DNA of 58,187 bases, from positions 1-58,187 of the forward strand of contig CAYUGZ010000003.1 in the NCBI GenBank assembly GCA_964444465.1. Direction: 5' to 3'. Both the position numbers and the translations under genes were made by a program. This stretch comes from Candidatus Woesearchaeota archaeon (GTDB lineage: Archaea > Nanobdellota > Nanobdellia > SCGC-AAA011-G17 > JACPNG01). How positions within the stretch are numbered: position 1 is the stretch's first letter; each line of letters opens with the position of its first letter. The notes beneath the pieces were generated by a model, which saw only the letters and a program-made list of their open reading frames with translations, ran no database searches and was not told where the DNA came from. Positions 4,950 to 19,723 of this stretch are shown here, one piece after another.

Positions 4950-5299
4950 TTTCTTTTCTTTAATTTTTTATTTTTATGATTAAAATTTGCTCCTTTATTT
5001 ACTAATTCAACTATTTTTCTGTTTATAAATTCATGGTGTTCTATATTAGAGCTTATAACAGTTAAAGCAAATAAAAATATTCCAACCCCACTCAATACAA
5101 ATATTATAGTAAATATTTTACTAGTATCATTTGTTGGATGTAAATCTCCATAACCTATAGTTGTTAATGTTATAGTAGAAAAATAAAAAGAGTCCATATA
5201 ATTCCATCCTTCTAACTTATGATAAGAAAATGTTCCTATTAATAAAAAAGTAATGATTAATAAAGATAAAATTAATACTAATTTTCTTCTACTCTCCAT
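4946..5299 (-). CDS. two-TM pore-only potassium channel (KcsA-like)
   Basis: K+ selectivity filter TLTTIGYGD between two hydrophobic helices. Confidence 0.8.
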   Translation of the reverse strand: MESRRKLVLILSLLIITFLLIGTFSYHKLEGWNYMDSFYFSTITLTTIGYGDLHPTNDTSKIFTIIFVLSGVGIFLFALTVISSNIEHHEFINRKIVELVNKGANFNHKNKKLKKRK

Positions 5300-5371
5300 T
5301 AAATATTACATACATTTTAGATTAAAAAAGGTGTTGGAAACTCTTATAAACAATTTAAATTAAAAAAATAA

Positions 5372-5575
5372 ATGGCAAACGAGGAACAAATTGGGTTTCA
5401 TAAAGGTTCTCTAGCAACCCTAGCTAAAGAAAGAGAAGAATTAGCTAGAATGATTAATGTAGTAGAACAATTAATGCAAATGCATCTTAAATCATTAAAA
5501 GATTTAGGCATAGACTTAGAGAAAGAAGCTAAAAAATCCAATAATTCTAAAGATATTGAAGAAAGATTAGGTTAA
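5372..5575 (+). CDS. hypothetical small helical protein
   Basis: 67-codon ORF; no motif. Confidence 0.35.
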   Translation: MANEEQIGFHKGSLATLAKEREELARMINVVEQLMQMHLKSLKDLGIDLEKEAKKSNNSKDIEERLG

Positions 5576-5668
5576 TCTTAACTCTAAAATGAAGAATGGG
5601 CAATGAAAAGATTTATATATAAAAAAGTAGTTATTTTATAATTACAATTATTAAAAGGAGGCAAAAAT

Positions 5669-6112
5669 ATGGAGGATAATAAAACTTTAATTTTAGCAGT
5701 TTTAGCAGTTCTAGCTGTAGGTGGATTAGCATTTGCATTTAATGGAGCTACTGGAGCAGTTGCTAGAAGTGGAGTAAATGAAAGGATGGCAACAATTTGT
5801 GTTTCTTCTGATGTAGACCTAGCTTGTGAAGATGATGCAAAAGTTGGTGTTGGTAAATATATTTATGTAACTGTAGACACAGGAAATGAAGGGACTAGTA
5901 ATATTGTTGGATTTTATGATAAAAATAGCCCTACCTATAAAAGAAGAGCAACCACTAAATTAGATGAAGGATGTGGTGGAACATCATGTAGACCTAACAG
6001 AATAACATATAAAAAGTATAATATCCCAGTTAGTTGGAGTGGAAAATTCTGTGCTAGAGCATTTGATAGGGCTACAGGAAAACAAGTAGAAGATTGCTTC
6101 TTAGTAGGCTAA
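5669..6112 (+). CDS. hypothetical Cys-rich protein with N-terminal membrane anchor or signal
   Basis: AAGGAGG Shine-Dalgarno 8 nt upstream; hydrophobic N-terminus LILAVLAVLAVGGLAFAF; visibly higher G+C than the flanks. Confidence 0.45.
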   Translation: MEDNKTLILAVLAVLAVGGLAFAFNGATGAVARSGVNERMATICVSSDVDLACEDDAKVGVGKYIYVTVDTGNEGTSNIVGFYDKNSPTYKRRATTKLDEGCGGTSCRPNRITYKKYNIPVSWSGKFCARAFDRATGKQVEDCFLVG

Positions 6113-6216
6113 TTCTTTTTTTATTTTTTAATTTATTTAATATACTTTAATTAGTATTATATTGATCTAAAAGATAGGTTTTTAAGTTTTTGTAGATAAT
6201 ATTTTATTAAATACAA

Positions 6217-6369
6217 ATGGAAACTTTCAAAAACCTAGATGAATTAGAAGATAGAATAGATTGGTTCTCTGAAAGATTACATGAAGCATTTAATGACCCA
6301 AAATATGATCAAGAATTAGAAAGATTTTTTAAAATAGACGTAAAACAACAGTTTTTGGGGGAGGATTAG
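6217..6369 (+). CDS. 50-codon ORF, probably the displaced N-terminus of the following RSH HD-domain gene
   Basis: ATG 6217 to TAG 6367-6369; overlaps the open upstream part of the HD ORF frame (-1 relation) across a TTTTTGGGGG run. Confidence 0.35.
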   Translation: METFKNLDELEDRIDWFSERLHEAFNDPKYDQELERFFKIDVKQQFLGED

Positions 6370-6476
6370 AGCAAGAAATTAAATTCTCTATTATTAATAA
6401 TTTAGATAAAGTTGATCTTATAAAAATTGGTTTAGGGAAAAAGAAAATAAAGAAATTTCTTAAATTTGGATATGCC

Positions 6477-7739
6477 ATGGCAAGATTTAGCCATGAAGGA
6501 CAACTAAGAAAATCAGGAAATCCATTTATAGAACACCCAGAAGAAGTAGGAGAAGATACTGCCAAATATGAAGTAAGTTTTACAACTGTTGCTGGAGCCT
6601 TAGTACATGATGGACCAGAACGTAAAACGAAAGAAGAAAGTGAAAGAAGAGGTAGAAAACTTACAGATATAGAAGAAGCAGCAATTTTTTACTCTTATGG
6701 TTTAGAGTTTTATAATTTCATTAGATTAGATAATGAGTTTTCTTTTGAAAATAAACAAAAACTTTATCGTGTTACTCATATGTTAATGCATGTTCTTGAT
6801 GGTGTAACAGATAGGGATAAAACAAATGATATTGATTATATGAAAGATGGAGTATTTTACAGACTCTACTCTTCATTAAATGAAAATAGTCTTTTGAATA
6901 TTGATCCAAATGAAATAGTAGAATCATTAGACAAATTTCATGATGTAGAGAATAATAATCAATTAGTAGAAAATTATAGGAAAGATGTACATTTAATTGA
7001 ATTAAATGAAGATGATAGAGAGAAAGTATCTAGAATAATTAGAAATATAAAGATTCCAGATAGGATACATAACACAGAAACTATGAGGCTTCTTTCTATG
7101 GAATTTGGGTTAGGTGAAATCTTCAAAGATTTCGTATATATTCATGAGATTGGTTTGGCACAGCAAAGAACTGAAAATGAAATATTTTTTGAAAGAACAA
7201 TGAATCAAGGTGCTGAACTAAGAGCTAGAAGTTCAGAAGAGATTGATTATAATATTTCTTCATTAATACCAATAATTGGAAAAGATTGGATAGAATTTAT
7301 TCATCATTGTTTTAATAGATATGGAGAAATGAAGATATTTACTAGTCCTAATACAAAAGAAAATATAAATTTCGTATTTGAAGAATTTAAGAAAGCTAAA
7401 GAATTAAATAGAAGAGTAGGGGTGCCCATAGAATTACCTGAAGATTATTATAGATATGGAAACACTTTTGATGGATTTCTAATAAGACAACTAGAAGCTC
7501 TTATTAATGGAAATGGAAATCCTTATGAAAATTTTGAAGGTAATAACTTAGAACTTAAAAGATTTATGTATTCAGACTTTTTTTTAATTGGACATAATAT
7601 CCAGTTATTAGGAGTAGAGCAGAAAGTAATGGGCAAACAACAAAATATAAATGAATTTGGATTAGACTCTCTTCATCGTTATCCTACATTAAAAAGAATA
7701 TATTCTAATCAAAAACAACCTGAAAAACCCTTTTTTTAA
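6477..7739 (+). CDS. RelA/SpoT-homologue HD (alarmone hydrolase-like) domain protein with an unknown ~200-aa C-terminal region
   Basis: Ordered RSH HD motifs HEGQLRKSGNPFIEHP, AGALVHDGPE, VLDGVTD, IKIPDRIHNTETM. Confidence 0.7.
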   Translation: MARFSHEGQLRKSGNPFIEHPEEVGEDTAKYEVSFTTVAGALVHDGPERKTKEESERRGRKLTDIEEAAIFYSYGLEFYNFIRLDNEFSFENKQKLYRVTHMLMHVLDGVTDRDKTNDIDYMKDGVFYRLYSSLNENSLLNIDPNEIVESLDKFHDVENNNQLVENYRKDVHLIELNEDDREKVSRIIRNIKIPDRIHNTETMRLLSMEFGLGEIFKDFVYIHEIGLAQQRTENEIFFERTMNQGAELRARSSEEIDYNISSLIPIIGKDWIEFIHHCFNRYGEMKIFTSPNTKENINFVFEEFKKAKELNRRVGVPIELPEDYYRYGNTFDGFLIRQLEALINGNGNPYENFEGNNLELKRFMYSDFFLIGHNIQLLGVEQKVMGKQQNINEFGLDSLHRYPTLKRIYSNQKQPEKPFF

Positions 7740-8900
7740 ATGGCAAAAAAGAAAGAACCAAATTTGATGGGTAATTATTTTGATAAAAGTAGTGCAACTT
7801 TTCAAATTATTGAACAGATGAGACGGGAAATGTTAACAGGAAAAAGAGTAAAAATTTTAGAAAACATGATAGAAAAAGCTAAAGTTGAGGTGCATTCAAA
7901 AAGAAGAGAGATCGATGAATCGACTTATGGCTTCGCATATGATCTAAATAATAAAATATTTGGAGGATTTACTGAGAGAAGAGTTACAATGCTCATTAGT
8001 GGAGTTTTCAGTGGTGATAAAGAAGGGTTAAAACATTCTGGTAAAGACCTTCCTTGTATCATCCCTATTGATTTAGGAACGAATCCTCATCCACTCTTTA
8101 AAGGTCCAGAGAAGTACCCTACAATTGATACAAAAGTTACTCATGAATCTACCCTCAAATTTCTTGAAGAAAATAGAAAATTTTTAAGACAAGAAGGGAT
8201 AGGTTCATTTGCTATAGACTCTTCTAAATTCTTTTATTTTGACGAAAGGGAAATTTCAAGAAGATTTAATAAAAAAAGAGGGGAGATTGATATGAGAAAT
8301 CTTATTCCTGTAATAAATGAACTTCCACCTTACTTATTTATAGATGGAATGTTTGTAAGAACAGAAAAACTAATTCCTTCAGCTAGATCTTATGAAGAAA
8401 AAGCTGTAGGATTTGTAAGTTATAGACTTAAACAATCTGAAACACAAAAATTAGTTCATAAATTAACATTTCCAGAGGGAAGGATAGATGAAAAAGAAAG
8501 ATTAAGTGATTGGGTGGCCCATAGGATTGTGTTTGAGACAGAAGAGGAATTAGAAAGAGCAGAAGAATTCTTTAAAGAAAATCCAACAATTGGTGATTCT
8601 ACAATAACGTATAGGTATACAAAAGATTACTATATGAAACCTAAAATTAATTTGTTTAGAAGTAAAAATGTTGTTGTTGAAGCAAGAACTAAAGGGTATA
8701 AACCTTGTGTTAAAGAAGTTCAATTAATGCATTTCCCTCAATTTCGTTATAACTATCTAGATCCAAATAGTCCTGCAAGACATAAACAACAAAAAAATCT
8801 GAGAAAACATATAAGTAGGAAAAAAAGAGAATCATCAATAATTCATGAAGGAATTCTTCAAAGAATATTTGAAAAAGATAGAATTTTTATTCAAATTTAA
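7740..8900 (+). CDS. RelA/SpoT-like nucleotidyltransferase (small-alarmone-synthetase-like) domain protein with an unknown ~210-aa N-terminal region
   Basis: Ordered synthetase-fold motifs YRLKQSETQK, SDWVAHRIVF, TKDYYMKPK, KEVQLMH...ARHKQQK; ATG directly follows the TAA of the HD ORF, in the same frame. Confidence 0.6.
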   Translation: MAKKKEPNLMGNYFDKSSATFQIIEQMRREMLTGKRVKILENMIEKAKVEVHSKRREIDESTYGFAYDLNNKIFGGFTERRVTMLISGVFSGDKEGLKHSGKDLPCIIPIDLGTNPHPLFKGPEKYPTIDTKVTHESTLKFLEENRKFLRQEGIGSFAIDSSKFFYFDEREISRRFNKKRGEIDMRNLIPVINELPPYLFIDGMFVRTEKLIPSARSYEEKAVGFVSYRLKQSETQKLVHKLTFPEGRIDEKERLSDWVAHRIVFETEEELERAEEFFKENPTIGDSTITYRYTKDYYMKPKINLFRSKNVVVEARTKGYKPCVKEVQLMHFPQFRYNYLDPNSPARHKQQKNLRKHISRKKRESSIIHEGILQRIFEKDRIFIQI

Positions 8901-9114
8901 TGGTACGCCTGGACTGAACATTCGACATGTTGTGGAGCGCCGAGGGTTATTAATATCAATTCATCTTTCAGACTTTGCATCTTTAATAAACCACTGTATA
9001 TTAAATCAAATGTACTAATCTCCAACACTTTTAAGGATGATAGCCTTCATCGCCAAAATCTATAGGTGGAAATAAGTCTATAACATCTCTACGAATTTCT
9101 TCTCCATCTTCTCT

Positions 9115-9474
9115 TCATAATCCAAGATTTTCTAAAGAGCTACCTTTGTAAACTGGTTGCTCTAAATCTTTTCTAGCACTTATAAGAAGTTGGATACCCA
9201 ACTTTATACCCAACTTTTTATATATTCCTTCAGAAAGATGACCCTCTTCTTCAGGAACATAATCATCTTTCGCACCATCTTCCCATTGACCTTCACTCAA
9301 CATTAAAAAATCTCCAGAATCAGCTCCAGGAGTTTTTCTATAACACCTAATTTCTAAGCCACTATCCTTCTCTTTATTAGACACTCTAATTACAACTTGC
9401 TCTATTTGGTGCGATCCATCAGAATGTTTAGTAATGAACAAATCTCCAGGTTTAACATCTTGATATTCTGCCAT
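9115..9474 (-). CDS. hypothetical acidic protein (TGA stop followed by 27 more open, coding-like codons)
   Basis: 119-codon ORF behind leader cassette copy A; GGAG Shine-Dalgarno. Confidence 0.5.
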   Translation of the reverse strand: MAEYQDVKPGDLFITKHSDGSHQIEQVVIRVSNKEKDSGLEIRCYRKTPGADSGDFLMLSEGQWEDGAKDDYVPEEEGHLSEGIYKKLGIKLGIQLLISARKDLEQPVYKGSSLENLGL

Positions 9475-9549
9475 TTTATTTCTCCATTATCAACCCTTTT
9501 TAGAACTCTTTTTATTATAAATATTTACAATTTTTATTTATAAAACTTT
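9475..9549 (-). promoter_or_regulatory. shared promoter + 5' leader cassette, copy A
   Basis: TTTATAAA TATA box then TAATAAAAAGAGTTCTAAAAAGGGTTGAT...GGAGAAATAAAATG; near-identical copies at 38025-38100, 52127-52203 and 55779-55852. Confidence 0.55.
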
Positions 9550-9632
9550 CGCCGGGACTGGGATTCGAACCCAGACGCCCCGAAGGGCCAGGAGTTCCAG
9601 TCCTGTGCAATACCAGATTATGCGATCCCGGC
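9550..9632 (-). tRNA. tRNA-Ser (anticodon GGA)
   Basis: Cloverleaf read by hand: acceptor GCCGGGA/TCCCGGC, anticodon stem CAGGA/TCCTG with loop CTGGAAC, long variable arm GCCC-TTCG-GGGC, T arm CTGGG-TTCGAAT-CCCAG, discriminator G; no encoded CCA. Confidence 0.9.
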
Positions 9633-9676
9633 TTAAGAATAAATTCTTAATTTTACTTATAAAAGTTTTTATAGAA

Positions 9677-9985
9677 TTAATCTAGCATATTAATGCTTAT
9701 CTCAACATCTTCTGGAATTGGAACCCTCATAACTAATCTTAGAGCTCTTTCATCAACATCTAAATCTATTAATCTTTTGTGAATTCTCATCTCAAAATTA
9801 TCAAAACTAGCTTTTCCATCACCACAAGGACTTTTTCTTGTAGTTATCTTTAATTTTTTAGTTGGAAATGGGATTGGACCTCTCATTTTAACTTTAGTTT
9901 TTTGAGTTATATCTGTTATAGATTCACAGATTTCATTTAACTTACTTGTATTTGTACTTGATAATGATATTCTTGCTTTTGGCAT
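9677..9985 (-). CDS. rps10: 30S ribosomal protein S10 (uS10)
   Basis: MRGPIPFPTKK...FEMRIHKRLIDL; downstream of the aEF-1alpha gene as in the archaeal str cluster. Confidence 0.9.
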   Translation of the reverse strand: MPKARISLSSTNTSKLNEICESITDITQKTKVKMRGPIPFPTKKLKITTRKSPCGDGKASFDNFEMRIHKRLIDLDVDERALRLVMRVPIPEDVEISINMLD

Positions 9986-10035
9986 TTAATAATTTAGAAA
10001 AAACTATTTATAAAATTAACTATTATTATTTATTT

Positions 10036-10248
10036 ATGAGTTTAAGTGTAAAAGAATTAGAAGAGATTATAGAAGGATTAAATGATTGTTCAGAACTTGA
10101 ATTTAATAACGTTTATTCTAGAGTAGAAGGTAGCATAAAATCTTATCCTTTTAAAAATGAAAGAGAAGAATTATTAGATAAACTTGAAGGAGTTAAAGAT
10201 AAATATTGGAAGGAACGAGAAGTAAAACATACTTTTGGAAGACTTTAA
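10036..10248 (+). CDS. hypothetical small protein
   Basis: ORF track starts at 9946 inside rps10 antisense; ATG 10036 (MSLSVKELEE) is the plausible start. Confidence 0.35.
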   Translation: MSLSVKELEEIIEGLNDCSELEFNNVYSRVEGSIKSYPFKNEREELLDKLEGVKDKYWKEREVKHTFGRL

Positions 10249-10253
10249 TAATT

Positions 10254-10475
10254 CTATAATAAAACTTCTACACTACCTTGAACAAAATAAAATGATCTTT
10301 TTCCTTCTTTAGCTGGAACAATTGAAATATCTTCTCCTAAACTAGGAAGTCCAGTTTGATCTTCAGTATATAAAGTTCCTAAAAGAAATGGATTAAAATT
10401 CCCTTCAGCAATAACATAATGTGTTATATCATCCCCATAATGATCTAATCCACCATACACTATTTTAGTTTTCAT
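10254..10475 (-). CDS. hypothetical small protein
   Basis: 73-codon ORF with GGTGAT Shine-Dalgarno, between the aEF-1alpha gene and rps10. Confidence 0.35.
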   Translation of the reverse strand: MKTKIVYGGLDHYGDDITHYVIAEGNFNPFLLGTLYTEDQTGLPSLGEDISIVPAKEGKRSFYFVQGSVEVLL

Positions 10476-10518
10476 TTTATTATATTATCACCAAATTTTA
10501 AAAGAAAAAATAAAAAAA

Positions 10519-11799
10519 TTATTTTTTAACTAAATCAATACACATTCCAGCCGCAACAGTAGTTCCTGCATCCCTTATAGCAAATCTTGCCATTTGTGGA
10601 ATATCACTTTGCTTTTCTAAAACTAAAGGTTTCATAGGCTTTAATTTTACAATAGCTGCATCTCCTGTTTTAATAAAATCAGGATTTTCTTCTTTAACAG
10701 CTCCAGAAGCTGGATCTATTTTCTTTTGTATTTCCATAAATTGACAAGCTACTTGTGCTGTATGTATGTGAAATACTGGAGTGTAACCAACAGTTAATAC
10801 AGTAGGATGGTTCAATACAACTATTTGTGCTGTAAATTCTTTTACTATAGTAGGAATGTTATCTGGATGTCCTAAAACATCTCCTCTTGCTATATCTTTT
10901 TTTCCTATTCCTCTAACATTAAACCCAATATTATCTCCAGGTTCAGCTTGCTGTATTTGTTCGTGGTGCATCTCTATAGTTTTACATTCTCCTTCTACAC
11001 CTGTTCCTTCTCTAGCAGGAACTACAATAACTTTATCCCCAATTTTCATTGTTCCAGTTTCTACTCTTCCAACTGGGACAACCCCAATTCCTGTTACATT
11101 ATAAACATCTTGAATTGGTAATCTTAATGGAAGTTCAGTAGGTTTTTCGGGTTCTTTGAAAACATCTAATTGCTCCTTTAATGTTGGTCCTTTATACCAA
11201 GATAATTTATCAGATTTCTTTACAACATTATCTCCTTGTAACGCACTTATTGGAATAACTGGGACATCTTCACTTTTATATCCAGCTGTTTTTAATAAAG
11301 CTAGTACTTCATCTTTAACTTTATTGAATTTAGACTCGTCATAATCAATAGTGTCCATCTTATTTACAATAACACCTAATTGCTTTACACCAAAAGTTGT
11401 ACATAACCAAGCATGTTCTTTAGATTGAGCCATTACTCCTTCACCTGCTGCAATTACTAAAAAACCAACATCAGCTTGAGAAGCACCTGTAATCATATTT
11501 TTAACAAAGTCTTTGTGACCTGGAGCATCTATAATTGTATATTCATATTTATCTGTGTTAAATTTTTTATGAGATAAATCTATTGTAACCCCTCTTTCTC
11601 TTTCTTCTTTTAAATTATCCATAACAAAAGCAAATTCAAATCCTGCTTTACCAACTTTTTGAGCTTCATCTTTCAATTTTCTTAGATCTTGTTCACCAAT
11701 AACTCCTCCATCAAACATAAGTCTACCTACAGTAGTTGATTTTCCATGGTCAACATGACCTACAAATATTAAATTAATATGTGGTTTTTCTTTAGCCAT
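10519..11799 (-). CDS. tuf: translation elongation factor 1-alpha (aEF-1A)
   Basis: [19 protein letters not shown]-domain motifs; full-length EF-1alpha-like sequence. Confidence 0.95.
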
Positions 11800-11923
11800 T
11801 TTTTATTTAATCTTCCTCCAATAATATGTTTTTAAAAAACTTAATCATTAGCTTTAAACTATTTATAAAAGTTTTGTTTTTATCACTATGTTCTTAATCT
11901 CTATAAAAAATTAAGAAATATAT

Positions 11924-12283
11924 CTATAATCGTTCAAAATCAGGTTGTTCAAAATCATCTTCATTAATGTCGTTTTCCTTAGTAACTTCTCCTTCTAATC
12001 CCTCACCTCTAACTTTAGGTTCTTCCATACTTAATATCTCATTTCTTCTTTCTTCACCCATAGCATTATAAAAACCTGCAGCTATTTCATCATCATCATA
12101 TCCTAATCTCTTAAGTGTCCTCATTGGATCTTGATATTTAGCATCCCCTAATTCTCTTAATTTATAGATTATTTTATATCCTCCAGCTATAGCAACAGAA
12201 GCGATATTTTTCTTTCTATTAAAAACTTTTTTAGTTGCCTCTAAATTTCCATATATTGCTGAATCAATACTTTCGTCTGCCAT
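11924..12283 (-). CDS. hypothetical acidic protein
   Basis: 119-codon ORF inserted between the aEF-2 and aEF-1alpha genes. Confidence 0.45.
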   Translation of the reverse strand: MADESIDSAIYGNLEATKKVFNRKKNIASVAIAGGYKIIYKLRELGDAKYQDPMRTLKRLGYDDDEIAAGFYNAMGEERRNEILSMEEPKVRGEGLEGEVTKENDINEDDFEQPDFERL

Positions 12284-12528
12284 TTTTTATCCTTTTTAAT
12301 GATACTTTTACTATATAGTAAATGATTTTTTAGTATATAAAACTTTCTGTCCATCATTCTCTAGAAAGTAGTGACACTCATTATTCTTAAATTTGGCTTA
12401 ATAAGAGCTATAACTACATTTTAAGGCTAGTAAAATAATTAGAATATCGCAAAAATTAATCTATTTTTGCTAATTTTGAGTATAAAAAATGACCCTAACT
12501 ATTTATAAAACTTCGTATTTTTTATCTA

Positions 12529-14697
12529 TTATTCTGTTTTCAATCCTTTTCTATCTCTAATTTGCTTAATTAACTTGTTTTGGATCATTTCAGGCACTTT
12601 TTCGAATACTTGATCCACTATATAAAAAGTTCCTCTTCCACCTGTTCCAGACCTTAAATCATTGCTTAATCCAAACATTTCAGCTACTGGAAGCTTAGCT
12701 TTAACTGTCATGTGCTCTCCTTCTTGTGTCATATCTAGTAATTGACCCCTTTTATTCTGAATTAATTTAGAAATTTCACCTAAAAATTCAGCAGGAGACT
12801 CAATTTGGAGTATTTGTAAAGGTTCAAACATAGTAGCCTTAGCATCCCCTAAAGCTAGTCTTACAGACTCTCTTACTGCTGGTAAAACTTGAGCTGGACC
12901 CCTATGAATAGCATCCTCATGTAGCTTCATATCCATCAAATAGACCTTCATTTTAACACATGGTTCTTTAGCTAATATTCCACCATCTATAACTTGTTGA
13001 AATCCATCCATAACCATCTCTATAACCTCTCCAATATGGACAATTCCTCTAGAACCATCAATTAAAAAATTTCCTTTGTAGATTTGTTTGACTTTTTGAG
13101 CATCTTTAGCTGCCCATCCTAATTCAGCTAATTTGTTATAAATAGCAGGATCTTTCTTCTTAACCCTTATCTCAGGAAGCTCTCCAGCTTTGATTAATTC
13201 ATAAACTTCATCTTCCATTGGTTCAACATAAAAATAGAATTTATTGTGCTTATTTGGAGATTTACCTTCAAACTCTCCAGATTTATTTTGTATTGTTTCT
13301 CTATAAACAACAATTGGTGGACTAGCAATCACATCTAATCCTTTTTCTCTTTTAATTCTATCTTCTATAATCTCTAAATGTAATTCACCCATCCCACTCA
13401 TTAAATTTTCACCAGTTTCTTCATTTATTTGTATTACAATACTAGGATCTTCTTTACTTACTTGTTTTAGAACCTCAACTAACTTAGGAAGATCAGCTGC
13501 AGATTTAGCATCTATAGATTTAGTTATAACAGGTTCGAATATATTTTTCATAGCTTCAAATGGTTCAACGGGATTAGTAGAAACTGTCTCTCCAGTATAA
13601 ACATTTTTCAATCCAGTTATACCAATAATATTTCCAGCAGGTACATTATCAACTGTTATTCTTTGAGCTCCTTTATAGATAGAAATTTGTTGTAATCTAA
13701 CCCTTCTTTTAGCCAAATTCATATAAATATCCATCCCTTGTTTTAAAGTTCCAGAAAATAATCTTCCTGTAGCAACTTCTCCTGCATGTTTATCAATAAT
13801 AATTTTAGTAACAACAAAAGCTAAAGGTCCATCAGGATCTGATTCAGTTAAAGCTTTTCCTTCTATACTTTCTAGATCACCATGCCATATTTTTGGAATT
13901 CTATATTTTTGTGCATCTACTGGATTTGGCAAATGATTAATAACCATATCTAAAACAACCTTATGTAAAGGAGCTTTTTGTCCTAAATTTTTATATTCTT
14001 CAGAATCAGAATCATAAGCTTGAATAATATCCTTAAAACTAATGTTGTTCTTAGCCATATATGTAAAAGATAAAGCCCAATTATGAAATGCAGAACCAAA
14101 AGCAACAGATCCATCTTGAACATTTACAGACCATTTTCCTTTAATATCTTCAGGAGAAATACTATGTATAAAATTATTAACATTTGTTATAATGTTAATA
14201 AAACGCTCTTGCATTTTTTCAGGTGTTAATTTAACTTCTTTGATTAATCTATCAACTTTATTTATGAATAATGTTGGTTTGACTCTTTCTCTTAATGCTT
14301 GTCTTAAAACAGTTTCAGTTTGAGGCATTATTCCTTCAACAGCATCTATTAATACAATAGCTCCATCTACTGCCCTCATAGCCCTTGTTACATCTCCACC
14401 AAAATCAACATGTCCTGGAGTATCAATTAAATTAATTAAAAATTCACTATCTTCAACTTCATGCACCATAGAAACATTTGCTGCATCTATTGTTATACCT
14501 CTTTCTTGTTCATCCTCTTTAAAATCTAATGCTAATTGTTTTCCAGCTAAATCTTCTGAGATCATTCCAGCTCCAGCCAATAAATTATCAGAAAATGTAG
14601 TTTTTCCATGATCAATATGGGCACAAATAGCGATATTTCTTATTCTATCTGGTGCCTTCATTATTCTCATGACTTTTTCAGTCATTGATTCTGCCAT
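12529..14697 (-). CDS. fusA: translation elongation factor 2 (aEF-2)
   Basis: AHIDHGKTT, DTPGH, NKVD; diphthamide-site context HEDAIHRGPAQ. Confidence 0.95.
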   Translation of the reverse strand: MAESMTEKVMRIMKAPDRIRNIAICAHIDHGKTTFSDNLLAGAGMISEDLAGKQLALDFKEDEQERGITIDAANVSMVHEVEDSEFLINLIDTPGHVDFGGDVTRAMRAVDGAIVLIDAVEGIMPQTETVLRQALRERVKPTLFINKVDRLIKEVKLTPEKMQERFINIITNVNNFIHSISPEDIKGKWSVNVQDGSVAFGSAFHNWALSFTYMAKNNISFKDIIQAYDSDSEEYKNLGQKAPLHKVVLDMVINHLPNPVDAQKYRIPKIWHGDLESIEGKALTESDPDGPLAFVVTKIIIDKHAGEVATGRLFSGTLKQGMDIYMNLAKRRVRLQQISIYKGAQRITVDNVPAGNIIGITGLKNVYTGETVSTNPVEPFEAMKNIFEPVITKSIDAKSAADLPKLVEVLKQVSKEDPSIVIQINEETGENLMSGMGELHLEIIEDRIKREKGLDVIASPPIVVYRETIQNKSGEFEGKSPNKHNKFYFYVEPMEDEVYELIKAGELPEIRVKKKDPAIYNKLAELGWAAKDAQKVKQIYKGNFLIDGSRGIVHIGEVIEMVMDGFQQVIDGGILAKEPCVKMKVYLMDMKLHEDAIHRGPAQVLPAVRESVRLALGDAKATMFEPLQILQIESPAEFLGEISKLIQNKRGQLLDMTQEGEHMTVKAKLPVAEMFGLSNDLRSGTGGRGTFYIVDQVFEKVPEMIQNKLIKQIRDRKGLKTE

Positions 14698-14936
14698 TAT
14701 AAAAGAAGAAGTTTGAAAAAGGTTTTATAAAGATTTTGTTAATCACATAGAATAGGCTTCTCTCTAGTGAACATCTAGATTCATCTTAAGATTATATTTT
14801 AATAAACACTAAACTTTATAAATAATGAAATAATTTTATATATCTGTTCAAGATTATAGATTTGTTACTACTCTTCAATGTTATCATTGGAAAGGTTTAT
14901 ATATTATTAAATTATTAATTAGATTGGGGGTCAAAT

Positions 14937-15080
14937 ATGACAGACGTAATTTGTAAGAAGTGTGGAACAATATATGAAGGGAATGAAATTCCAGAAGCAA
15001 TACAATGTATTTGTGAAAGCACTGAATTTGAGACAAGAGAAATAGGAATAACGGATACTAAAGCAGAAGCTGAAGTATAA
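14937..15080 (+). CDS. 47-aa zinc-ribbon-like protein
   Basis: MTDVICKKCGTIYEGNEIPEAIQCICESTEF...; CxxC plus CxC; GGGGGT Shine-Dalgarno-like; not in the ORF track (below length cut-off). Confidence 0.35.
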   Translation: MTDVICKKCGTIYEGNEIPEAIQCICESTEFETREIGITDTKAEAEV

Positions 15081-15837
15081 AGTATCCTATAAAGCAGCCT
15101 AAAGTAATAATTGGCATAGCTGGATAAAATTTTTTCTTTTTAGAATAGAATAATAAGAAAGATAGTGATATAGTAACTGATATTGTAATGATTAAGCTAT
15201 ACAACCCAAAATCTTTCATTACAACAGATGTAAATAACAAAGGAAATCCTACATCTCCACCCCCTAAAACAGCTACTTCTTTTTTATAAGGAATAAAGAA
15301 TCCAGCAAACACATTAGCTTTAGATTGTGATTTAGCTAGAGTGATCATATGTTTTGTTTTATACACTGCAATATAATCATATATTGAAATTAAAATTAAT
15401 AATATTGAAATAGAGACTATATCAAAAAACTTAAAGAATATTGCTGCTAATGCTCCATATATAAACAACTCAGTAAAGTTATGGACATAAACATTTGGTT
15501 TAAATACTTTAATTATTGCTAACACTAAAGCTAAGATAAATGCAATAGTTTCTGGAATAAATGAACTAAAAGAAAGTGATAAAGCAAATATTACAGCTAT
15601 AAAAAACCAAATTTTCCATAAAACATATAATTTAAATTTTAATAAGATATAAATAAAAAATGTCATTATTAATATTGCAATAAAAGTTGGTAGAAATGCT
15701 GTTCTTTGTTCTATTTCTGGTCTTTCTATACCATAAGGTAATTTTTCAGATGTTTTATCTACAACTAACAATCCTATAATTTGGGCTATAAAGAACAAAG
15801 CTATTAATAATAAAGTTACTTTTAATTTATGTTTCAT
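15058..15837 (-). CDS. presenilin/signal-peptide-peptidase-like intramembrane aspartyl protease
   Basis: Polytopic membrane protein with YD (SIYDYIAVY), GxGD (LGGGDVGFP) and a PAL-like (YPAMPI) motif in the canonical order. Confidence 0.6.
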   Translation of the reverse strand: MKHKLKVTLLLIALFFIAQIIGLLVVDKTSEKLPYGIERPEIEQRTAFLPTFIAILIMTFFIYILLKFKLYVLWKIWFFIAVIFALSLSFSSFIPETIAFILALVLAIIKVFKPNVYVHNFTELFIYGALAAIFFKFFDIVSISILLILISIYDYIAVYKTKHMITLAKSQSKANVFAGFFIPYKKEVAVLGGGDVGFPLLFTSVVMKDFGLYSLIITISVTISLSFLLFYSKKKKFYPAMPIITLGCFIGYFILQLLL

Positions 15838-15870
15838 CTATACTAAATGTTAATTTTATTTTTTATATAT

Positions 15871-16056
15871 TTATTTACTTTTAAGAACTTCAACATAATG
15901 GCATGTGCCACAATATAATCTTTCTTTATTTTCTGCTAGAAATGTTCCAGGACCACATTTAGGACAAGTTTTAGATCTAGTTAATTTATCTCCTTCAACT
16001 TTGTATTTAGTCCATACTTTACTTGGAACTTTATTCTTTCTTTTCTTCTTTGGCAT
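15871..16056 (-). CDS. rps27ae: 30S ribosomal protein S27ae
   Basis: Zinc ribbon CPKCG...CGTCHY with basic N-terminus; follows rps24e. Confidence 0.85.
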   Translation of the reverse strand: MPKKKRKNKVPSKVWTKYKVEGDKLTRSKTCPKCGPGTFLAENKERLYCGTCHYVEVLKSK

Positions 16057-16480
16057 CTTTCTTTACTTCTTCCTTTTTCTCTTCTTTCACTTCTTTTGAT
16101 TTTTCTTTATGTTGTTCTTTAGGAGCCTCTTTCTTTTCTTCTTTTGGTGATTCTTTAACCTCTTGTTTAGGTTGTTGTTGAGGGGTTGCTTGTTCTCCTT
16201 CTTTTTTATCCCCTTTTTTCTTTTTCTTTTTAAATTCTTCAATATTCTTTAAATTTTCTAAAGAATCATATAAATGAATAATAACTTTAGCTTTTGATTC
16301 GCCATATTTTGTGTAGATATGTCTTACAGAAATCAATTCTTGTTTTGCTTTCAAAACTGAAGCAACATTTTCAACAATATCTTTCTCAGAAGGAGTTGGT
16401 CCTTCAAAAAATAAATCGAAATTAACTCTTTTTCTTGATAATAAAGGCATTTCAGTTTGCTTAAGTAATTTTAATTCCAT
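16031..16480 (-). CDS. rps24e: 30S ribosomal protein S24e with Lys/Glu-rich C-terminal extension
   Basis: S24e core (NPLLSRKRV-like, VRHIYTKYG) plus a ~55-aa K/E/P-rich tail that overlaps rps27ae by 26 nt. Confidence 0.85.
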   Translation of the reverse strand: MELKLLKQTEMPLLSRKRVNFDLFFEGPTPSEKDIVENVASVLKAKQELISVRHIYTKYGESKAKVIIHLYDSLENLKNIEEFKKKKKKGDKKEGEQATPQQQPKQEVKESPKEEKKEAPKEQHKEKSKEVKEEKKEEVKKDAKEEKKE

Positions 16481-16481
16481 T

Positions 16482-16685
16482 TTAGTTTACTTTAATAGCA
16501 TATTCTCCTTTAACTTTAGCCTCTATTTTTTTAGCTATTTCTGATTTATTAGCATCTAAAATATTAATCCTACCTTGCCAACTAGTTGCATATTGACTTT
16601 GTTTTACAGAAGGACATTCTGAATCATTAACAGGACAAACCTTCCCTTCAACAAACATTCTACATTTTTTACATACCCTTTTCAT
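16482..16685 (-). CDS. spt4: transcription elongation factor Spt4 (RpoE'')
   Basis: 4-Cys zinc ribbon (CKKC...C...C) then SWQGRINILD; conserved position after rpo7. Confidence 0.75.
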   Translation of the reverse strand: MKRVCKKCRMFVEGKVCPVNDSECPSVKQSQYATSWQGRINILDANKSEIAKKIEAKVKGEYAIKVN

Positions 16686-17245
16686 TTTTTCTTTGATTCT
16701 TTCCCTTGTTTTTTTAGCTCTTCATCTATCCATTTTAAATTTCCAAGCATATGTTGTCTCATTGTCAATCCAATTTTTGGGTTTGCTGGATCTTTATATG
16801 ATAAAGCAATAACTCTTGCTCTACATTTATCTCCAACTTTTAATGATTTTTTAGTTTCTCTCCCAGTTAAAACATTTGATTTTGAAAATGTAACATAATC
16901 ATCCATTGCTTGACTTACATGAACCATTCCATCGACAGCTCCAATATTAATAAAAGCTCCAAAATCTGTTATCTCTAAAACTCTTCCTAAAACAACTTCT
17001 TGTAATTCTGGTTTGTAGGTAAATAATTTAAATGAAGTTTCATAATATGCAGCTCCATCTCCAGGAATAATAATTCCATCTCCAACATTAACTACAGAAG
17101 AAACAGCTACAACAAAACCAAAATCTTTTGAAATAAATCCTTCAAATTGTTTATTTAATTGTTGAATAATTGCTTCATCAGTATCAGAATTGAATAACTC
17201 TGGTGATACTCTAATGTGACTTTTGACTTCTACTTCATAAAACAT
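16682..17245 (-). CDS. rpo7: DNA-directed RNA polymerase subunit E' (Rpo7)
   Basis: N-terminal Rpo7 fold plus S1 domain (GRVLEITDFGAFINIG...GDKCRARV). Confidence 0.85.
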   Translation of the reverse strand: MFYEVEVKSHIRVSPELFNSDTDEAIIQQLNKQFEGFISKDFGFVVAVSSVVNVGDGIIIPGDGAAYYETSFKLFTYKPELQEVVLGRVLEITDFGAFINIGAVDGMVHVSQAMDDYVTFSKSNVLTGRETKKSLKVGDKCRARVIALSYKDPANPKIGLTMRQHMLGNLKWIDEELKKQGKESKKK

Positions 17246-17250
17246 TTTAT

Positions 17251-17604
17251 TTATTTATCTATAATCAAATATTTTTTTTGTCTTATTGTGATAATTGGAA
17301 TTTTTTCCCTTTTTAACTTTTTCTTAAGCTCCTTATCTTGTGTAGCTACTATAATGTTGTCATCTTTAAGCTCTAAGATAAGATCATCAACAATTTTATC
17401 TTTTTTTGTTTCAATAATATTAAATCTTTTTATTAATTCTAAAGCTAATTTCTCTAATTTTTTATTTTTTAGTTCATCTAAAGTTTTATCTATAACAAAA
17501 ATTTTATAATTAAAGTCTGAGATCCTTTCAATTTCTGAGATTAAATCAACTTTAAACTTCAATGAAGTTAATAAAAAATCTGTATCTAAGATTATTTTAT
17601 ACAT
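17251..17604 (-). CDS. PIN-domain protein (Fcf1/Utp24-like)
   Basis: ILDTDFLL and VATQDKELKKKL motifs; conserved archaeal position upstream of rpo7. Confidence 0.65.
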   Translation of the reverse strand: MYKIILDTDFLLTSLKFKVDLISEIERISDFNYKIFVIDKTLDELKNKKLEKLALELIKRFNIIETKKDKIVDDLILELKDDNIIVATQDKELKKKLKREKIPIITIRQKKYLIIDK

Positions 17605-17832
17605 CTATTTTAGATTTCAATTTTCAATTTATAAAGCTTACTATTTTTTTAATAAGATTTTTAGTATATTAAATTTTCTTTATAAACGTATGTTTTTATC
17701 AAATTTAATTTAAGGATAGAAGCCCTAATTCCTTAATATTTTGGGGTTTTAGCCATAGAAAAGCTTTTAAATCAAACATGATTTTTATTAATGTTCTTAG
17801 CAAAAATTAACTAAGAAAACAAACTAATTTAG

Positions 17833-19722
<1,890 letters not shown>

Positions 19723-19723
19723 G

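What the first reader, a model, noticed from the sequence alone, without database searches (positions are those of the whole stretch)
6217..8900. Adjacent, same-frame pair of highly divergent RelA/SpoT-homologue genes (HD hydrolase-like + synthetase-like) in an archaeal context
ORF 6477-7739 carries the diagnostic RSH HD-domain motifs in canonical order. HEGQLRKSGNPFIEHP matches H-x-GQ-x-R-x-SG-x-P-[YF]-I-x-HP. AGALVHDGPE holds the HD dyad, but the usual HDxxED reads HDGPER, so the second acidic residue is lost. VLDGVTD and IKIPDRIHNTETM (K-[IL]-x-DR-[IL]HN) follow. ORF 7740-8900 carries, in its last ~170 aa, the motif order of the RelA_SpoT synthetase fold: YRLKQSETQK (basic R-x-K...S/T...K), SDWVAHRIVF (D-x-x-G/A-x-R-[IV]), TKDYYMKPK (KDYI-x-x-PK) and KEVQLMH...ARHKQQK (E-[IV]-Q-[IL]-x-[TH] ... 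H-x-x-x-K). The G-Y-x-S-x-H loop is replaced by LFRSKN. Each protein also has ~200 aa that I cannot assign. The two ORFs share a reading frame and are separated only by TAA (7737-7739) directly followed by ATG. RSH enzymes are essentially bacterial and plastid, and archaea largely lack them. A hydrolase gene next to a synthetase gene is the layout of toxSAS toxin-antitoxin modules. Both flanks are clearly archaeal (K+ channel/ogt, tRNA-Ser/rps10/aEF-1alpha), and the segment looks slightly G+C-richer than its surroundings. This could be a new archaeal alarmone or tRNA-modifying toxin/antitoxin-type module.
Basis: partly seen in the sequence, partly recalled or inferred. Interest (0 to 1): 0.75.

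Follow-up and report, generated by a model that had tools for sequence, protein, structure and literature searches.

The report
Archaeal split RelA/SpoT-like enzyme pair
A tiny marine archaeon carries two adjacent genes that are very divergent relatives of the bacterial enzymes that make and break the stress signal (p)ppGpp; the pair is conserved in related archaea, a domain generally thought to lack this system.

Summary
ORF2 (7740-8900, 386 aa) belongs to an unannotated family of about 91 clusters. The family profile hits the small alarmone synthetases RelP and RelQ (E 2.6e-15 to 3e-10). A high-confidence AlphaFold model (pLDDT 93.7) retrieves only RelA/SpoT synthetase structures as significant matches. 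The ATP/Mg catalytic residues (R229, K231, D257, E326, Q328) are invariant or nearly so.

ORF1 is an RSH-type HD hydrolase homologue (TIGR00691 E 1e-10; Rel HD domains in PDB E 2e-7). In this window it is broken by a 1-nt deletion after 6338. The real gene is 6217-7739 (507 aa in a 99.8% identical contig).

An HD partner with the same motif order sits upstream of ORF2 homologues in at least four very divergent lineages. In one lineage a PHP phosphoesterase takes its place.

The pair lies in conserved chromosomal synteny. Its base composition is native, and ORF2 has no phage or plasmid matches. I therefore favour a vertically inherited synthetase/hydrolase signalling module of DPANN (Nanoarchaeia) archaea over a mobile toxSAS toxin-antitoxin.

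The product is unknown: an alarmone or a 3'-pyrophosphorylated RNA end. ORF2's conserved 212-aa N-terminal domain has no detectable relative. This is a new variant of a known kind.

The parts
6217..7739 (+). Complete RSH-type HD hydrolase-like gene (507 aa when intact). In this window it is split by a frameshift into ORF 6217-6369 and ORF 6477-7739.
   Evidence: P0005 (507 aa, 100% identical over the 420-aa part) and P0006 (514 aa, 81%) span both ORFs. With P0005, the alignment to Rel HD domains starts at residue 80-83, upstream of M88 = 6477. TIGR00691 spoT_relA E 1.1e-10, SpoT NF008303 E 1.6e-9.
6332..6359 (+). Cluster of 4 substitutions plus a 1-nt deletion (between 6338 and 6339) that breaks the HD gene's frame. 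Either an assembly error or a strain-specific lesion.
   Evidence: blastn against L024: 99.77% identity over 2190 nt, with all differences in this stretch. The three-way alignment with L004 shows the deletion and two substitutions are window-specific.
6492..6539 (+). HD motif A, H-x-G-Q-x-R-x-S-G-x-P-F-I-x-H-P. It holds the substrate-binding Arg and the first metal-ligand His.
   Evidence: Aligned to Rel 'HRGQLRRSGEPYITHP'. Coordinates.
6606..6623 (+). HD dyad plus a degenerate ED diad (HDGPER; canonical HDxxED).
   Evidence: P0006 has HDGTEH. Partners in other lineages keep HDIIED, HDVEED, HDVVED or HDVLEE.
6792..6812 (+). VLDGVTD, resembling the RSH 'DGVTK' motif. It lies about 40 aa further from the HD dyad than in Rel.
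   Evidence: Position. Equivalence to DGVTK rests on my knowledge of Rel sequences; it was not aligned significantly.
7047..7085 (+). K-I-x-D-R-I-H-N motif, with the last metal-ligand Asp and the Asn of RSH HD domains.
   Evidence: Collinear alignment to Rel 'VKLADRLHNLRTL'. This stretch is not significant on its own. The same K-[IL]-x-D-[RKN]-[IL] motif is found in partner groups G2, G3 and G4.
7737..7742 (+). TAAATG junction. The stop of the HD gene abuts the start of the synthetase gene, suggesting co-transcription and probably translational coupling.
   Evidence: The same abutting arrangement occurs in L024. A 9-nt spacer is seen in L004.
7740..8375 (+). ORF2 N-terminal alpha/beta domain (residues 1-212). 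It is family-specific with no detectable homologue. D130 is invariant; D59, G88 and S162 are nearly invariant.
   Evidence: Conservation in A3. Confidently folded. No Pfam, PHROG or PDB sequence hit. hhalign against the C-terminal half found nothing.
8376..8774 (+). ORF2 RelA/SpoT-type synthetase (nucleotidyltransferase-fold pyrophosphokinase) domain, residues 213-345.
   Evidence: Pfam RelA_SpoT E 7.4e-5 for the window protein; 33 of 64 family members match, best 2e-11. A3 profile against PDB: RelP 2.6e-15, RelQ 2e-10, RelSeq 7e-5. Foldseek: all 27 PDB matches with E <= 0.001, and every hit down to rank 43, are RSH synthetase-containing structures.
8415..8450 (+). ATP-phosphate binding motif S-Y-R-L-K-x-S-x-x-x-K (R229, K231, K237).
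   Evidence: R229 and K231 are present in 64 of 64 sequences; K/R237 in 60 of 64. Aligned to the R-x-K of RelP.
8505..8534 (+). Catalytic Mg2+-binding Asp motif D-W-V-A-H-R (D257, R262).
   Evidence: D257 in 64 of 64, R262 in 58 of 64. Aligned to 'HDIAGVRII' of RelP.
8619..8669 (+). KDYY-x-x-PK motif plus a degenerate G-loop (N-L-F-R-S-K-N instead of N-G-Y-R-S-L-H).
   Evidence: The aromatic residue at 306 is F or Y in 61 of 64 sequences. G305 occurs in 39 of 64 (L in the window). Position 310 is N, K or H.
8712..8732 (+). E-V-Q motif (E326, Q328), equivalent to EIQIRT of RSH synthetases.
   Evidence: E326 in 57 of 64, Q328 in 58 of 64. Aligned to 'AEIQIRT'.
8775..8900 (+). Basic C-terminal helical tail of ORF2 (ARHKQQKNLRKHISRKKRE...) and the stop codon.
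   Evidence: Helices 348-354 and 360-376 in the model. The C-terminal half of the family has a median pI of 9.3.

Best explanation
The two genes form a co-transcribed, chromosomally inherited RelA/SpoT-homologue module specific to DPANN (Nanoarchaeia-type) archaea.

ORF2 is probably an active ATP-dependent pyrophosphokinase.
- R229, K231 and K237 would hold the ATP phosphates.
- D257 and E326 would hold Mg2+.
- F306 would stack on the acceptor base.
- The enzyme would transfer pyrophosphate to the 3'-OH of a purine nucleotide (a (p)ppGpp- or (pp)pApp-like alarmone) or of an RNA 3' end.

ORF1 is a Mn2+-type HD phosphohydrolase of the RSH lineage that would remove that group again. Together they would act as writer and eraser of one signal.

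Each enzyme carries extra, lineage-specific domains: ORF2's 212-aa N-terminal domain, and ORF1's insertions and roughly 180-aa C-terminal region. These presumably provide regulation or targeting.

Shown here: homology, fold, conservation of catalytic residues, gene pairing and synteny. Inferred: enzymatic activity, identity of the product, and opposing action on the same molecule.
For: SYNTH homology:
- Pfam RelA_SpoT matches 33 of 64 family members, best E 2e-11.
- The family profile hits RelP and RelQ at 2.6e-15 to 3e-10, and RelSeq at 7e-5.
- The exhaustive HMMER search reaches canonical tandem-SAS proteins at 2e-11.
- The AlphaFold model has pLDDT 93.7 and pTM 0.92. All 27 PDB matches with E <= 0.001, and every hit down to rank 43, are RSH synthetase-containing structures. 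The best viral hits are RelA/SpoT proteins.
- Catalytic residues are invariant or nearly invariant.
- dN/dS is 0.23 for ORF2 and 0.48 for ORF1.

HD homology:
- TIGR00691 E 1.1e-10 and SpoT model E 1.6e-9.
- Rel, RelA and SpoT HD domains are the only significant PDB hits.

Pairing:
- A same-strand upstream gene is present at nearly every ORF2-family locus examined; L027 (PUA gene intervening on the opposite strand) is the exception, and L018/L020/L026 lack upstream sequence.
- Full-length partners in four mutually unalignable groups all carry motifs B and C in RSH order, and motif A was matched in G1-G3 but not in G4/L027.
- In L012 the partner is a PHP phosphoesterase instead (PHP_C 25.3 bits, above the gathering score). 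This argues that the conserved role of the partner is hydrolysis.

Vertical inheritance:
- The window lineage keeps the same neighbourhood in many TARA contigs.
- Other lineages share DRG GTPase, AsnS-like, small coiled-coil protein, DUF371, HD, SYNTH, PUA protein, aIF5B.
- The small coiled-coil protein two genes upstream is 64-66% identical between lineages.
- Base composition is native.
- ORF2 has no phage or plasmid match.
Against: - No biochemical data exist.
- The G-loop is degenerate in the window protein (L-F-R-S-K-N), so a guanine-nucleotide acceptor is not assured.
- The window-lineage HD has lost the Asp of the ED diad (HDGPER, HDGTEH), evolves under relaxed constraint (dN/dS 0.48), and is frameshifted in this very window. 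The hydrolase may be weakened or decaying here.
- The partner groups cannot be aligned significantly with one another. Group G3 has no statistical HD hit, only motifs.
- The basic synthetase half (pI about 9.3) with acidic partners, and partner swapping between close relatives, are also typical of toxin-antitoxin pairs.
Confidence: 0.55

Rival explanations
1. A toxSAS-like toxin-antitoxin or defence module. ORF2 would be a growth-arresting pyrophosphokinase, for example of tRNA CCA ends as in FaRel2 or CapRel, or a (pp)pApp producer as in FaRel. The upstream HD hydrolase would be a type IV antitoxin that reverses the modification.
For: - The gene pair is abutting, with the hydrolase first.
- SAH hydrolases are known type IV antitoxins that also de-pyrophosphorylate tRNA (bioRxiv 10.1101/575399; 10.1101/2021.04.30.441581).
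- The partner evolves extremely fast. It is replaced by a PHP enzyme in a lineage whose ORF2 is 48% identical to the window's.
- The SYNTH half is basic and the partner acidic.
- CapRel is among the significant structural matches.
- The locus lies next to a tRNA-Ser and near an integration hot spot in sister strains.
Against: - Chromosomal synteny is conserved across lineages with 25-50% ORF2 identity.
- Base composition is native.
- The window ORF2 and ORF1 match no PADLOC model (one distant ORF2 homologue, P0047, matched PDC-S33 at E 8.8e-6), and ORF2 has no phage or plasmid hit.
- By sequence, RelP and RelQ score far better than CapRel (2.6e-15 against 0.014).
- Both proteins are much larger than toxSAS/SAH pairs and carry conserved extra domains.
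- A frameshifted 'antitoxin' next to an intact 'toxin' in this window would be lethal if the frameshift is real.
Confidence: 0.2
2. A translation-linked RNA-modifying pair that is not a toxin. ORF2 would reversibly pyrophosphorylate (or otherwise phosphorylate) a tRNA, rRNA or other RNA 3' end as a housekeeping control of translation. ORF1 would be the eraser.
For: - The SYNTH half and C-terminal tail are consistently basic (pI 9.3 in 89% of members).
- The guanine-type G-loop is degenerate.
- The neighbours are repeatedly translation genes: aIF5B, a DRG/TGS GTPase, a PUA-domain protein and Trm1 in other lineages; tRNA-Ser, rpS10, aEF-1alpha and aEF-2 here.
- RSH enzymes are established RNA-modifying enzymes.
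Against: - Gene neighbourhood in tiny DPANN genomes, which are dense in translation genes, is weak evidence.
- No RNA-binding domain was detected.
- Basic pI is common in AT-rich genomes.
- Sequence similarity is highest to the alarmone synthetases RelP and RelQ.
Confidence: 0.15
3. Degenerate relics. Both proteins would keep the RSH folds but be catalytically inactive pseudo-enzymes with a structural or regulatory role, or in this window a decaying locus.
For: - The window-lineage HD lacks the second acidic residue of the ED diad and is frameshifted here.
- The window G-loop lacks Gly and His.
- Pfam scores are below gathering thresholds for both window proteins.
Against: - The ATP/Mg catalytic residues are invariant across 64 sequences that share only 20-50% identity.
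- dN/dS is below 1 for both genes.
- Other lineages keep HDxxED.
- The frameshift is absent from a 99.8% identical contig and from the sister lineage.
Confidence: 0.07

Closest known systems
Small alarmone synthetases RelP/RelQ (SAS; PDB 6fgk, 6ewz, 5ded)
   Same: They are the best sequence and structure matches for ORF2's C-terminal half. The beta-strand/helix order is the same, as are R-x-K, D-x-x-[GA]-x-R, DY-x-x-PK and E-x-Q.
   Different: ORF2 has an extra conserved 212-aa N-terminal domain of unknown fold family and a basic C-terminal tail. The G-loop G-Y-x-S-x-H is degenerate. ORF2 is archaeal and always paired with a hydrolase gene. Oligomerisation and allosteric features of RelQ were not examined.
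toxSAS toxin-antitoxin modules with an SAH antitoxin (FaRel-ATfaRel; also FaRel2, PhRel2, CapRel)
   Same: An RSH synthetase gene lies next to an RSH hydrolase gene, abutting it. The hydrolase could reverse the synthetase's product. CapRel is a significant structural match.
   Different: Here the chromosomal synteny is conserved, ORF2 and ORF1 hit no PADLOC model and ORF2 has no mobile-element hit, and the proteins are much larger with extra domains. Sequence similarity to CapRel is much weaker than to RelP/RelQ.
Long bifunctional RSH (Rel/SpoT) N-terminal region
   Same: The order is HD then SYNTH. ORF1's HD motifs are most similar to long-RSH HD domains; Rel, RelA and SpoT are the only significant PDB and NCBIfam hits.
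   Different: The two domains are on separate polypeptides, separated by about 390 residues of unrelated sequence. There are no TGS or ACT/RRM regulatory domains. No fused homologue was found among 91 family representatives; all are 448 aa or shorter.
Small alarmone hydrolases (Mesh1 / SAH)
   Same: These are stand-alone HD hydrolases of the RSH superfamily with the same metal-ligand motifs.
   Different: ORF1 is about 2.5 times larger, with roughly 90 aa of insertions inside the HD domain and a C-terminal extension. Only one stand-alone HD-domain protein reached E <= 10 in the PDB search (4yf1, Lmo0812, 187 aa, E 0.34); I did not establish whether it is an SAH, and no chain named Mesh1 appeared. 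The ED diad is degenerate in the window lineage.

Membership tests
RSH synthetase domain (Pfam RelA_SpoT, PF04607) | Significant profile match to the RelA_SpoT domain | tested here: met
   The window protein alone scores E 7.4e-5, 23.4 bits, below the gathering score of 27. At family level the match is clear: 33 of 64 members, best E 2e-11, and the A3 profile hits RelP at 2.6e-15 and RelQ at 2e-10.
RSH synthetase domain (Pfam RelA_SpoT, PF04607) | Nucleotidyltransferase-type RSH synthetase fold | tested here: met
   AlphaFold model with pLDDT 93.7. In Foldseek against PDB, all 27 matches with E <= 0.001, and every hit down to rank 43, are RSH synthetase-containing structures: RelP 1.3e-6, RelQ, CapRel, Rel, SpoT, RelA.
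RSH synthetase domain (Pfam RelA_SpoT, PF04607) | Catalytic and ATP-binding residues (R-x-K, Mg-binding Asp, E-x-Q) | tested here: met
   R229, K231 and D257 are present in 64 of 64 sequences; R262 in 58, E326 in 57, Q328 in 58. They align to the RelP equivalents.
RSH synthetase domain (Pfam RelA_SpoT, PF04607) | Acceptor-binding G-loop G-Y-x-S-x-H | tested here: not met
   The window has L-F-R-S-K-N. In the family, Gly occurs in 39 of 64, an aromatic (F or Y) in 61 of 64, and His in 9 of 64. The stacking aromatic is kept; the rest is degenerate.
RSH synthetase domain (Pfam RelA_SpoT, PF04607) | ATP-dependent pyrophosphate transfer to a 3'-OH | not testable with these tools
   Needs enzyme assays.
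RSH hydrolase domain (Pfam HD_4, PF13328) | Profile match at Pfam's curated threshold | tested here: not met
   HD_4 scores 14-15 bits, E 0.02-0.04, against a gathering score of 27.2. Only profile positions 3-60 are matched.
RSH hydrolase domain (Pfam HD_4, PF13328) | Significant, RSH-specific similarity of the HD core | tested here: met
   TIGR00691 spoT_relA E 1.1e-10 and SpoT NF008303 E 1.6e-9. T. thermophilus Rel E 2.4e-7, and only long-RSH HD domains are significant in PDB. The match is local (residues 80-145 of 507). The K-x-x-DR-x-HN motif is collinear but not significant on its own.
RSH hydrolase domain (Pfam HD_4, PF13328) | Metal ligands H...HD...D | tested here: met
   H of 'EHP', the HD dyad, and D of 'PDRIHN' are all present in order.
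RSH hydrolase domain (Pfam HD_4, PF13328) | ED diad (HDxxED) | tested here: not met
   The window has HDGPER and the sister lineage HDGTEH. Partners in other lineages keep ED or EE.
RSH hydrolase domain (Pfam HD_4, PF13328) | All-helical HD fold | not tested
toxSAS toxin-antitoxin systems | Bicistronic, abutting or overlapping synthetase gene with a neutralising partner gene | tested here: met
   TAA|ATG junction. A same-strand upstream partner is present at all loci with upstream sequence except L027.
toxSAS toxin-antitoxin systems | Membership of a toxSAS subfamily (FaRel, FaRel2, PhRel, PhRel2, CapRel) | tested here: inconclusive
   No subfamily HMMs were available. The family profile scores CapRel at only E 0.014 against RelP at 2.6e-15. 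The window ORF2 has no PADLOC hit; distant homologue P0047 matched PDC-S33 at E 8.8e-6.
toxSAS toxin-antitoxin systems | Patchy, mobile-element-associated distribution | tested here: not met
   Synteny is conserved, composition is native, and ORF2 has no phage or plasmid matches.
toxSAS toxin-antitoxin systems | Toxicity of the synthetase and neutralisation by the partner | not testable with these tools
   Needs expression assays.
Long RSH (Rel/RelA/SpoT) | HD and SYNTH on one polypeptide, followed by TGS and ACT/RRM regulatory domains | tested here: not met
   There are two genes with a genuine TAA stop. Neither protein has a TGS or ACT hit. No fused homologue was found.

The most novel reading that the evidence does not exclude
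A vertically inherited, archaea-specific RelA/SpoT system. The pyrophosphokinase has a previously unseen N-terminal sensor domain and is paired with a fast-evolving HD (or PHP) eraser. It would give genome-reduced DPANN archaea a stringent-response-like control, making either an alarmone or a reversible 3'-pyrophosphate mark on tRNA or rRNA. This would be the first dedicated alarmone-type signalling module native to Archaea rather than a sporadic bacterial import.
Probability: 0.3. Interest if true: 0.8.

Novelty: new variant of a known kind. Interest (0 to 1): 0.62.

Why it matters
(p)ppGpp signalling is a hallmark of bacteria and plastids. Model archaea make no detectable (p)ppGpp, and RSH genes in archaea have been treated as rare, sporadic transfers (PMC3153485; PMC10249747).

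This work defines an unannotated family. Its members are all 'hypothetical protein' with no precomputed Pfam domain. It comprises about 91 clusters at 50% identity, has RSH catalytic residues intact, carries a new N-terminal domain, and has an obligatory hydrolase partner. It sits in conserved chromosomal context in DPANN archaea.

If the family is active, several things follow. It gives a concrete, clonable pair for testing whether some archaea have their own alarmone or RNA-pyrophosphorylation signalling. It widens the known architectural range of RSH enzymes. The replacement of the HD partner by a PHP enzyme would be a natural experiment on writer/eraser coupling.

Tried and rejected
- **Read-through or fusion of the two ORFs, or an alternative genetic code.** Rejected. 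TAA is the standard stop here (22 of 26 long ORFs). Homologous pairs have 9-238 nt spacers and differ in frame. No fused homologue was found.
- **Compositional island or recent transfer.** Rejected.
- **Internal duplication in ORF2 (N-domain as a degenerate second SYNTH domain).** hhalign E 0.34.
- **Homology between ORF1's C-terminal region and ORF2's N-domain, or between partner groups.** Nothing significant.
- **First AlphaFold run with 5 sequences.** Useless, pLDDT 50.
- **The search for related loci with the 64-sequence alignment.** Failed for lack of a conserved stretch. With A1 it gave only 2 genome loci and 8 metagenome loci.
- **Third homologous-protein search with A3.** Returned only 5 proteins because candidate collection was capped.
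- **The listing of cluster members.** Gave no names.
- **G3 partner profile and the PHP partner against PDB.** No hits.
- **Rfam on 5000-10600.** Only tRNA-Ser.
- **PADLOC.** No defence-system match for ORF1, ORF2 or the partners tested; one distant ORF2 homologue (P0047) matched PDC-S33 at E 8.8e-6.
- **PHROGs.** No match for ORF2; ORF1 (P0005) matched only generic phosphohydrolase families (phrog_990, E 1.5e-7).
- **Weak Foldseek matches to protein tyrosine phosphatases** (E 0.04-0.07, prob 0.3-0.75). They might involve the N-domain but are too weak to use, and no C(X)5R motif is present.

Full report
**What is there**

The + strand carries ORF 6477-7739 (420 aa) and ORF 7740-8900 (386 aa). 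They are separated only by TAA (7737-7739) followed directly by ATG.

The first ORF is mis-delimited. The 50-aa ORF 6217-6369 and the 420-aa ORF are two pieces of one gene. A metagenomic contig (L024) is 99.77% identical to the window over 2190 nt and encodes an uninterrupted 507-aa protein (P0005). All five differences, four substitutions and a 1-nt deletion after window position 6338, lie within 6332-6359. The sister lineage (L004, protein P0006, 514 aa, 81% identical) agrees with L024 at the deletion and at two of the substitutions. The frameshift is therefore specific to this window, either an assembly error or a strain lesion.

With the full-length protein, the alignment to Rel HD domains begins at residue 80-83, upstream of the Met at 6477. 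This confirms that the true start is 6217.

**The downstream gene is an RSH-type synthetase homologue**

On its own the window protein gives only a sub-threshold Pfam RelA_SpoT hit (E 7.4e-5, 23.4 bits, gathering score 27) and nothing in PDB by phmmer. The word-indexed search found four homologues. An exhaustive HMMER search with their profile found 91 representative clusters. Most are full-length proteins of 350-440 aa, the rest fragments, and at the tail are canonical tandem small-alarmone-synthetase proteins (E 2e-11 to 2e-4).

A 64-sequence alignment (A3) gave the following:
- Pfam RelA_SpoT in 33 of 64 members, best E 2e-11.
- PDB hits to RelP (2.6e-15), RelQ (2e-10), RelSeq (7e-5) and CapRel (0.014), with R-x-K, D-x-x-G-x-R, DY-x-x-PK and E-x-Q aligned in register.

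AlphaFold2 with this alignment gave pLDDT 93.7 and pTM 0.92. In Foldseek against PDB, all 27 matches with E <= 0.001, and every hit down to rank 43, are RSH synthetase-containing structures: RelP 1.3e-6, RelQ, CapRel 6e-4, Rel, SpoT, RelA. The best viral-library hits are phage RelA/SpoT proteins.

Within the family:
- R229, K231 and D257 are invariant (64 of 64).
- R262, E326 and Q328 are present in 57-58 of 64.
- The acceptor-stacking aromatic (F306 here) is F or Y in 61 of 64.
- The rest of the G-loop is degenerate. Gly occurs in 39 of 64 (Leu in the window), and the His position is N, K or H.

Residues 1-212 form a conserved, confidently modelled alpha/beta domain with no detectable relative in Pfam, PHROGs or PDB sequences, and no similarity to the C-terminal half. 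The C-terminal half is consistently basic, with a median pI of 9.3.

**The upstream gene is an RSH-type HD homologue**

Pfam HD_4 is sub-threshold (14-15 bits). However, NCBIfam TIGR00691 (spoT_relA) matches residues 86-132 at E 1.1e-10, and the SpoT equivalog matches at 1.6e-9. In PDB the only significant hits are HD domains of long RSHs: T. thermophilus Rel 2.4e-7, then RelA, Mtb Rel, B. subtilis Rel, RelSeq and SpoT.

The K-I-P-D-R-I-H-N motif aligns collinearly with Rel's K-L-A-D-R-L-H-N, though that stretch is not significant alone. The metal ligands (H of EHP, the HD dyad, D of DRIHN) are present. The ED diad reads E-R here and E-H in the sister lineage.

About 90 extra residues are inserted inside the HD domain. 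Roughly 180 C-terminal residues are unassigned.

**The pair is conserved, and the partner is always a phosphohydrolase**

At nearly every locus encoding an ORF2 homologue, a gene lies upstream on the same strand, 0-238 nt away; L027 (PUA gene intervening) is the exception, and three short fragments (L018, L020, L026) lack upstream sequence.

The full-length partners fall into groups that cannot be aligned significantly with each other. Yet each carries RSH HD motifs in canonical order: motif A ([H/Y]-x-G-x-x-R...G-x-P/Y...H; matched in G1-G3, not in G4), HDxxE[D/E], and K-[IL]-x-D-[RKN]-[IL].

| Group | Loci | HD-diad motif | Note |
|---|---|---|---|
| G1 | window lineage | HDGPER / HDGTEH | ED diad degenerate |
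| G2 | L001 | HDIIED | TIGR00691 E 3.6e-7 |
| G3 | L011, L017, L019, L002 | HDVEED / HDVVED (L002 is a C-terminal fragment, assigned by similarity) | KLLDRIAL motif (L017, L019) |
| G4 | L027 | HDVLEE | a PUA gene lies between the partner and ORF2 |

In L012 the ORF2 homologue is 48% identical to the window's. There the partner is a 286-aa PHP phosphoesterase (PHP_C 25.3 bits, above the gathering score; D-L-H-x-H motif). Non-orthologous replacement by another metal-dependent phosphoesterase argues that the conserved role of the partner is hydrolysis.

**Context**

The nearest relatives are marine contigs named Candidatus Nanoarchaeia. They share the window's gene order: pheST, ogt, hydrolase, K+ channel, 70-aa protein, 147-aa protein, HD, SYNTH, rpS10, aEF-1alpha, aEF-2; the window also has a tRNA-Ser between SYNTH and rpS10.

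More distant lineages share a different but mutually conserved order: DRG-type GTPase, AsnS-like protein, small coiled-coil protein, DUF371, HD, SYNTH, PUA protein, aIF5B. The small coiled-coil protein two genes upstream is 64-66% identical between these lineages and the window.

Other context findings:
- Base composition and GC3 of the two genes are typical of the window.
- dN/dS against the sister lineage is 0.48 (HD) and 0.23 (SYNTH), compared with 0.065 for aEF-1alpha.
- ORF2 has no tblastn match in the phage or plasmid collections; ORF1 was not searched there.
- ORF1, ORF2 and the partners tested matched no PADLOC model; one distant ORF2 homologue (P0047) matched PDC-S33 at E 8.8e-6.

**Interpretation**

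The evidence best fits a vertically inherited, co-transcribed writer/eraser pair of the RSH superfamily in DPANN archaea. One enzyme is a catalytically competent pyrophosphokinase with a novel N-terminal domain. The other is an HD (occasionally PHP) phosphohydrolase.

The acceptor is not established. Sequence similarity is highest to the alarmone synthetases RelP and RelQ. On the other hand, the G-loop is degenerate, the catalytic half is basic, and the neighbours are translation genes. These leave a tRNA or other RNA 3' end open as substrate, as for FaRel2 and CapRel (10.1101/2021.04.30.441581).

The toxSAS toxin-antitoxin reading is disfavoured mainly by the conserved synteny and the lack of any mobile-element signal. 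It does retain some support from the fast-evolving and swappable partner, and from the acidic/basic charge pattern of the two proteins.

**Relation to the literature**

RSHs were reported as rare and sporadic in archaea (PMC3153485), and (p)ppGpp is undetectable in model archaea (PMC10249747). A comparative-genomics survey did note eggNOG 'RelA/SpoT' annotations in 19-69% of genomes of several DPANN phyla and ascribed them to bacterial transfer (PMC8407392). I found no description of this particular family. Its members are unnamed or 'hypothetical protein' and carry no precomputed Pfam domain. I rate it a new variant of a known kind.

Noticed in passing
window 5372-5575 (+): A 67-aa coiled-coil protein is 64-66% identical to 80-82-aa proteins located two genes upstream of the HD partner in distant lineages (L011 3632-3874, L001 3365-3613). 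It is far better conserved than the HD/SYNTH pair itself, and may be a conserved member of the same gene block. It has no family hit beyond weak RsbU_N-like noise.
   Followed up: partly
window 8901-9549, including ORF 9115-9474 (-): About 640 nt containing a 119-aa ORF of slightly higher G+C lie between ORF2 and tRNA-Ser (9550-9632). The sister lineage lacks this stretch: in L004 only 132 nt separate ORF2 from rpS10. It may be a small insertion at the tRNA gene. It has no Pfam, PHROG or Rfam match.
   Followed up: partly
L005, L006, L009 at roughly 11800-20000: In some sister-strain contigs, an element with a tyrosine integrase (PF00589), an HNH protein and many unknown ORFs is inserted between rpS10 and aEF-1alpha. 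It is absent from L004, L007, L008 and the window. It is probably an integrated virus or plasmid of a marine nanoarchaeon.
   Followed up: no
L012 127-987: A PHP-family phosphoesterase (PHP_C above the gathering score, D-L-H-x-H motif) replaces the HD protein directly upstream of an ORF2 homologue that is 48% identical to the window's.
   Followed up: partly
window 5669-6112 (+): A 147-aa Cys-rich protein with an N-terminal hydrophobic segment sits immediately upstream of the HD gene. It is conserved (82% identity) in the sister lineage and occupies the position held by DUF371 in other lineages. It has no family match.
   Followed up: no
L011 (CAYXMT010000012.1): This contig's record title says 'uncultured Methanosarcinales archaeon'. 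Yet it has 36% G+C and the same DRG, DUF371, HD, SYNTH, PUA, aIF5B synteny as the DPANN-like contigs. The bin label may be wrong.
   Followed up: no
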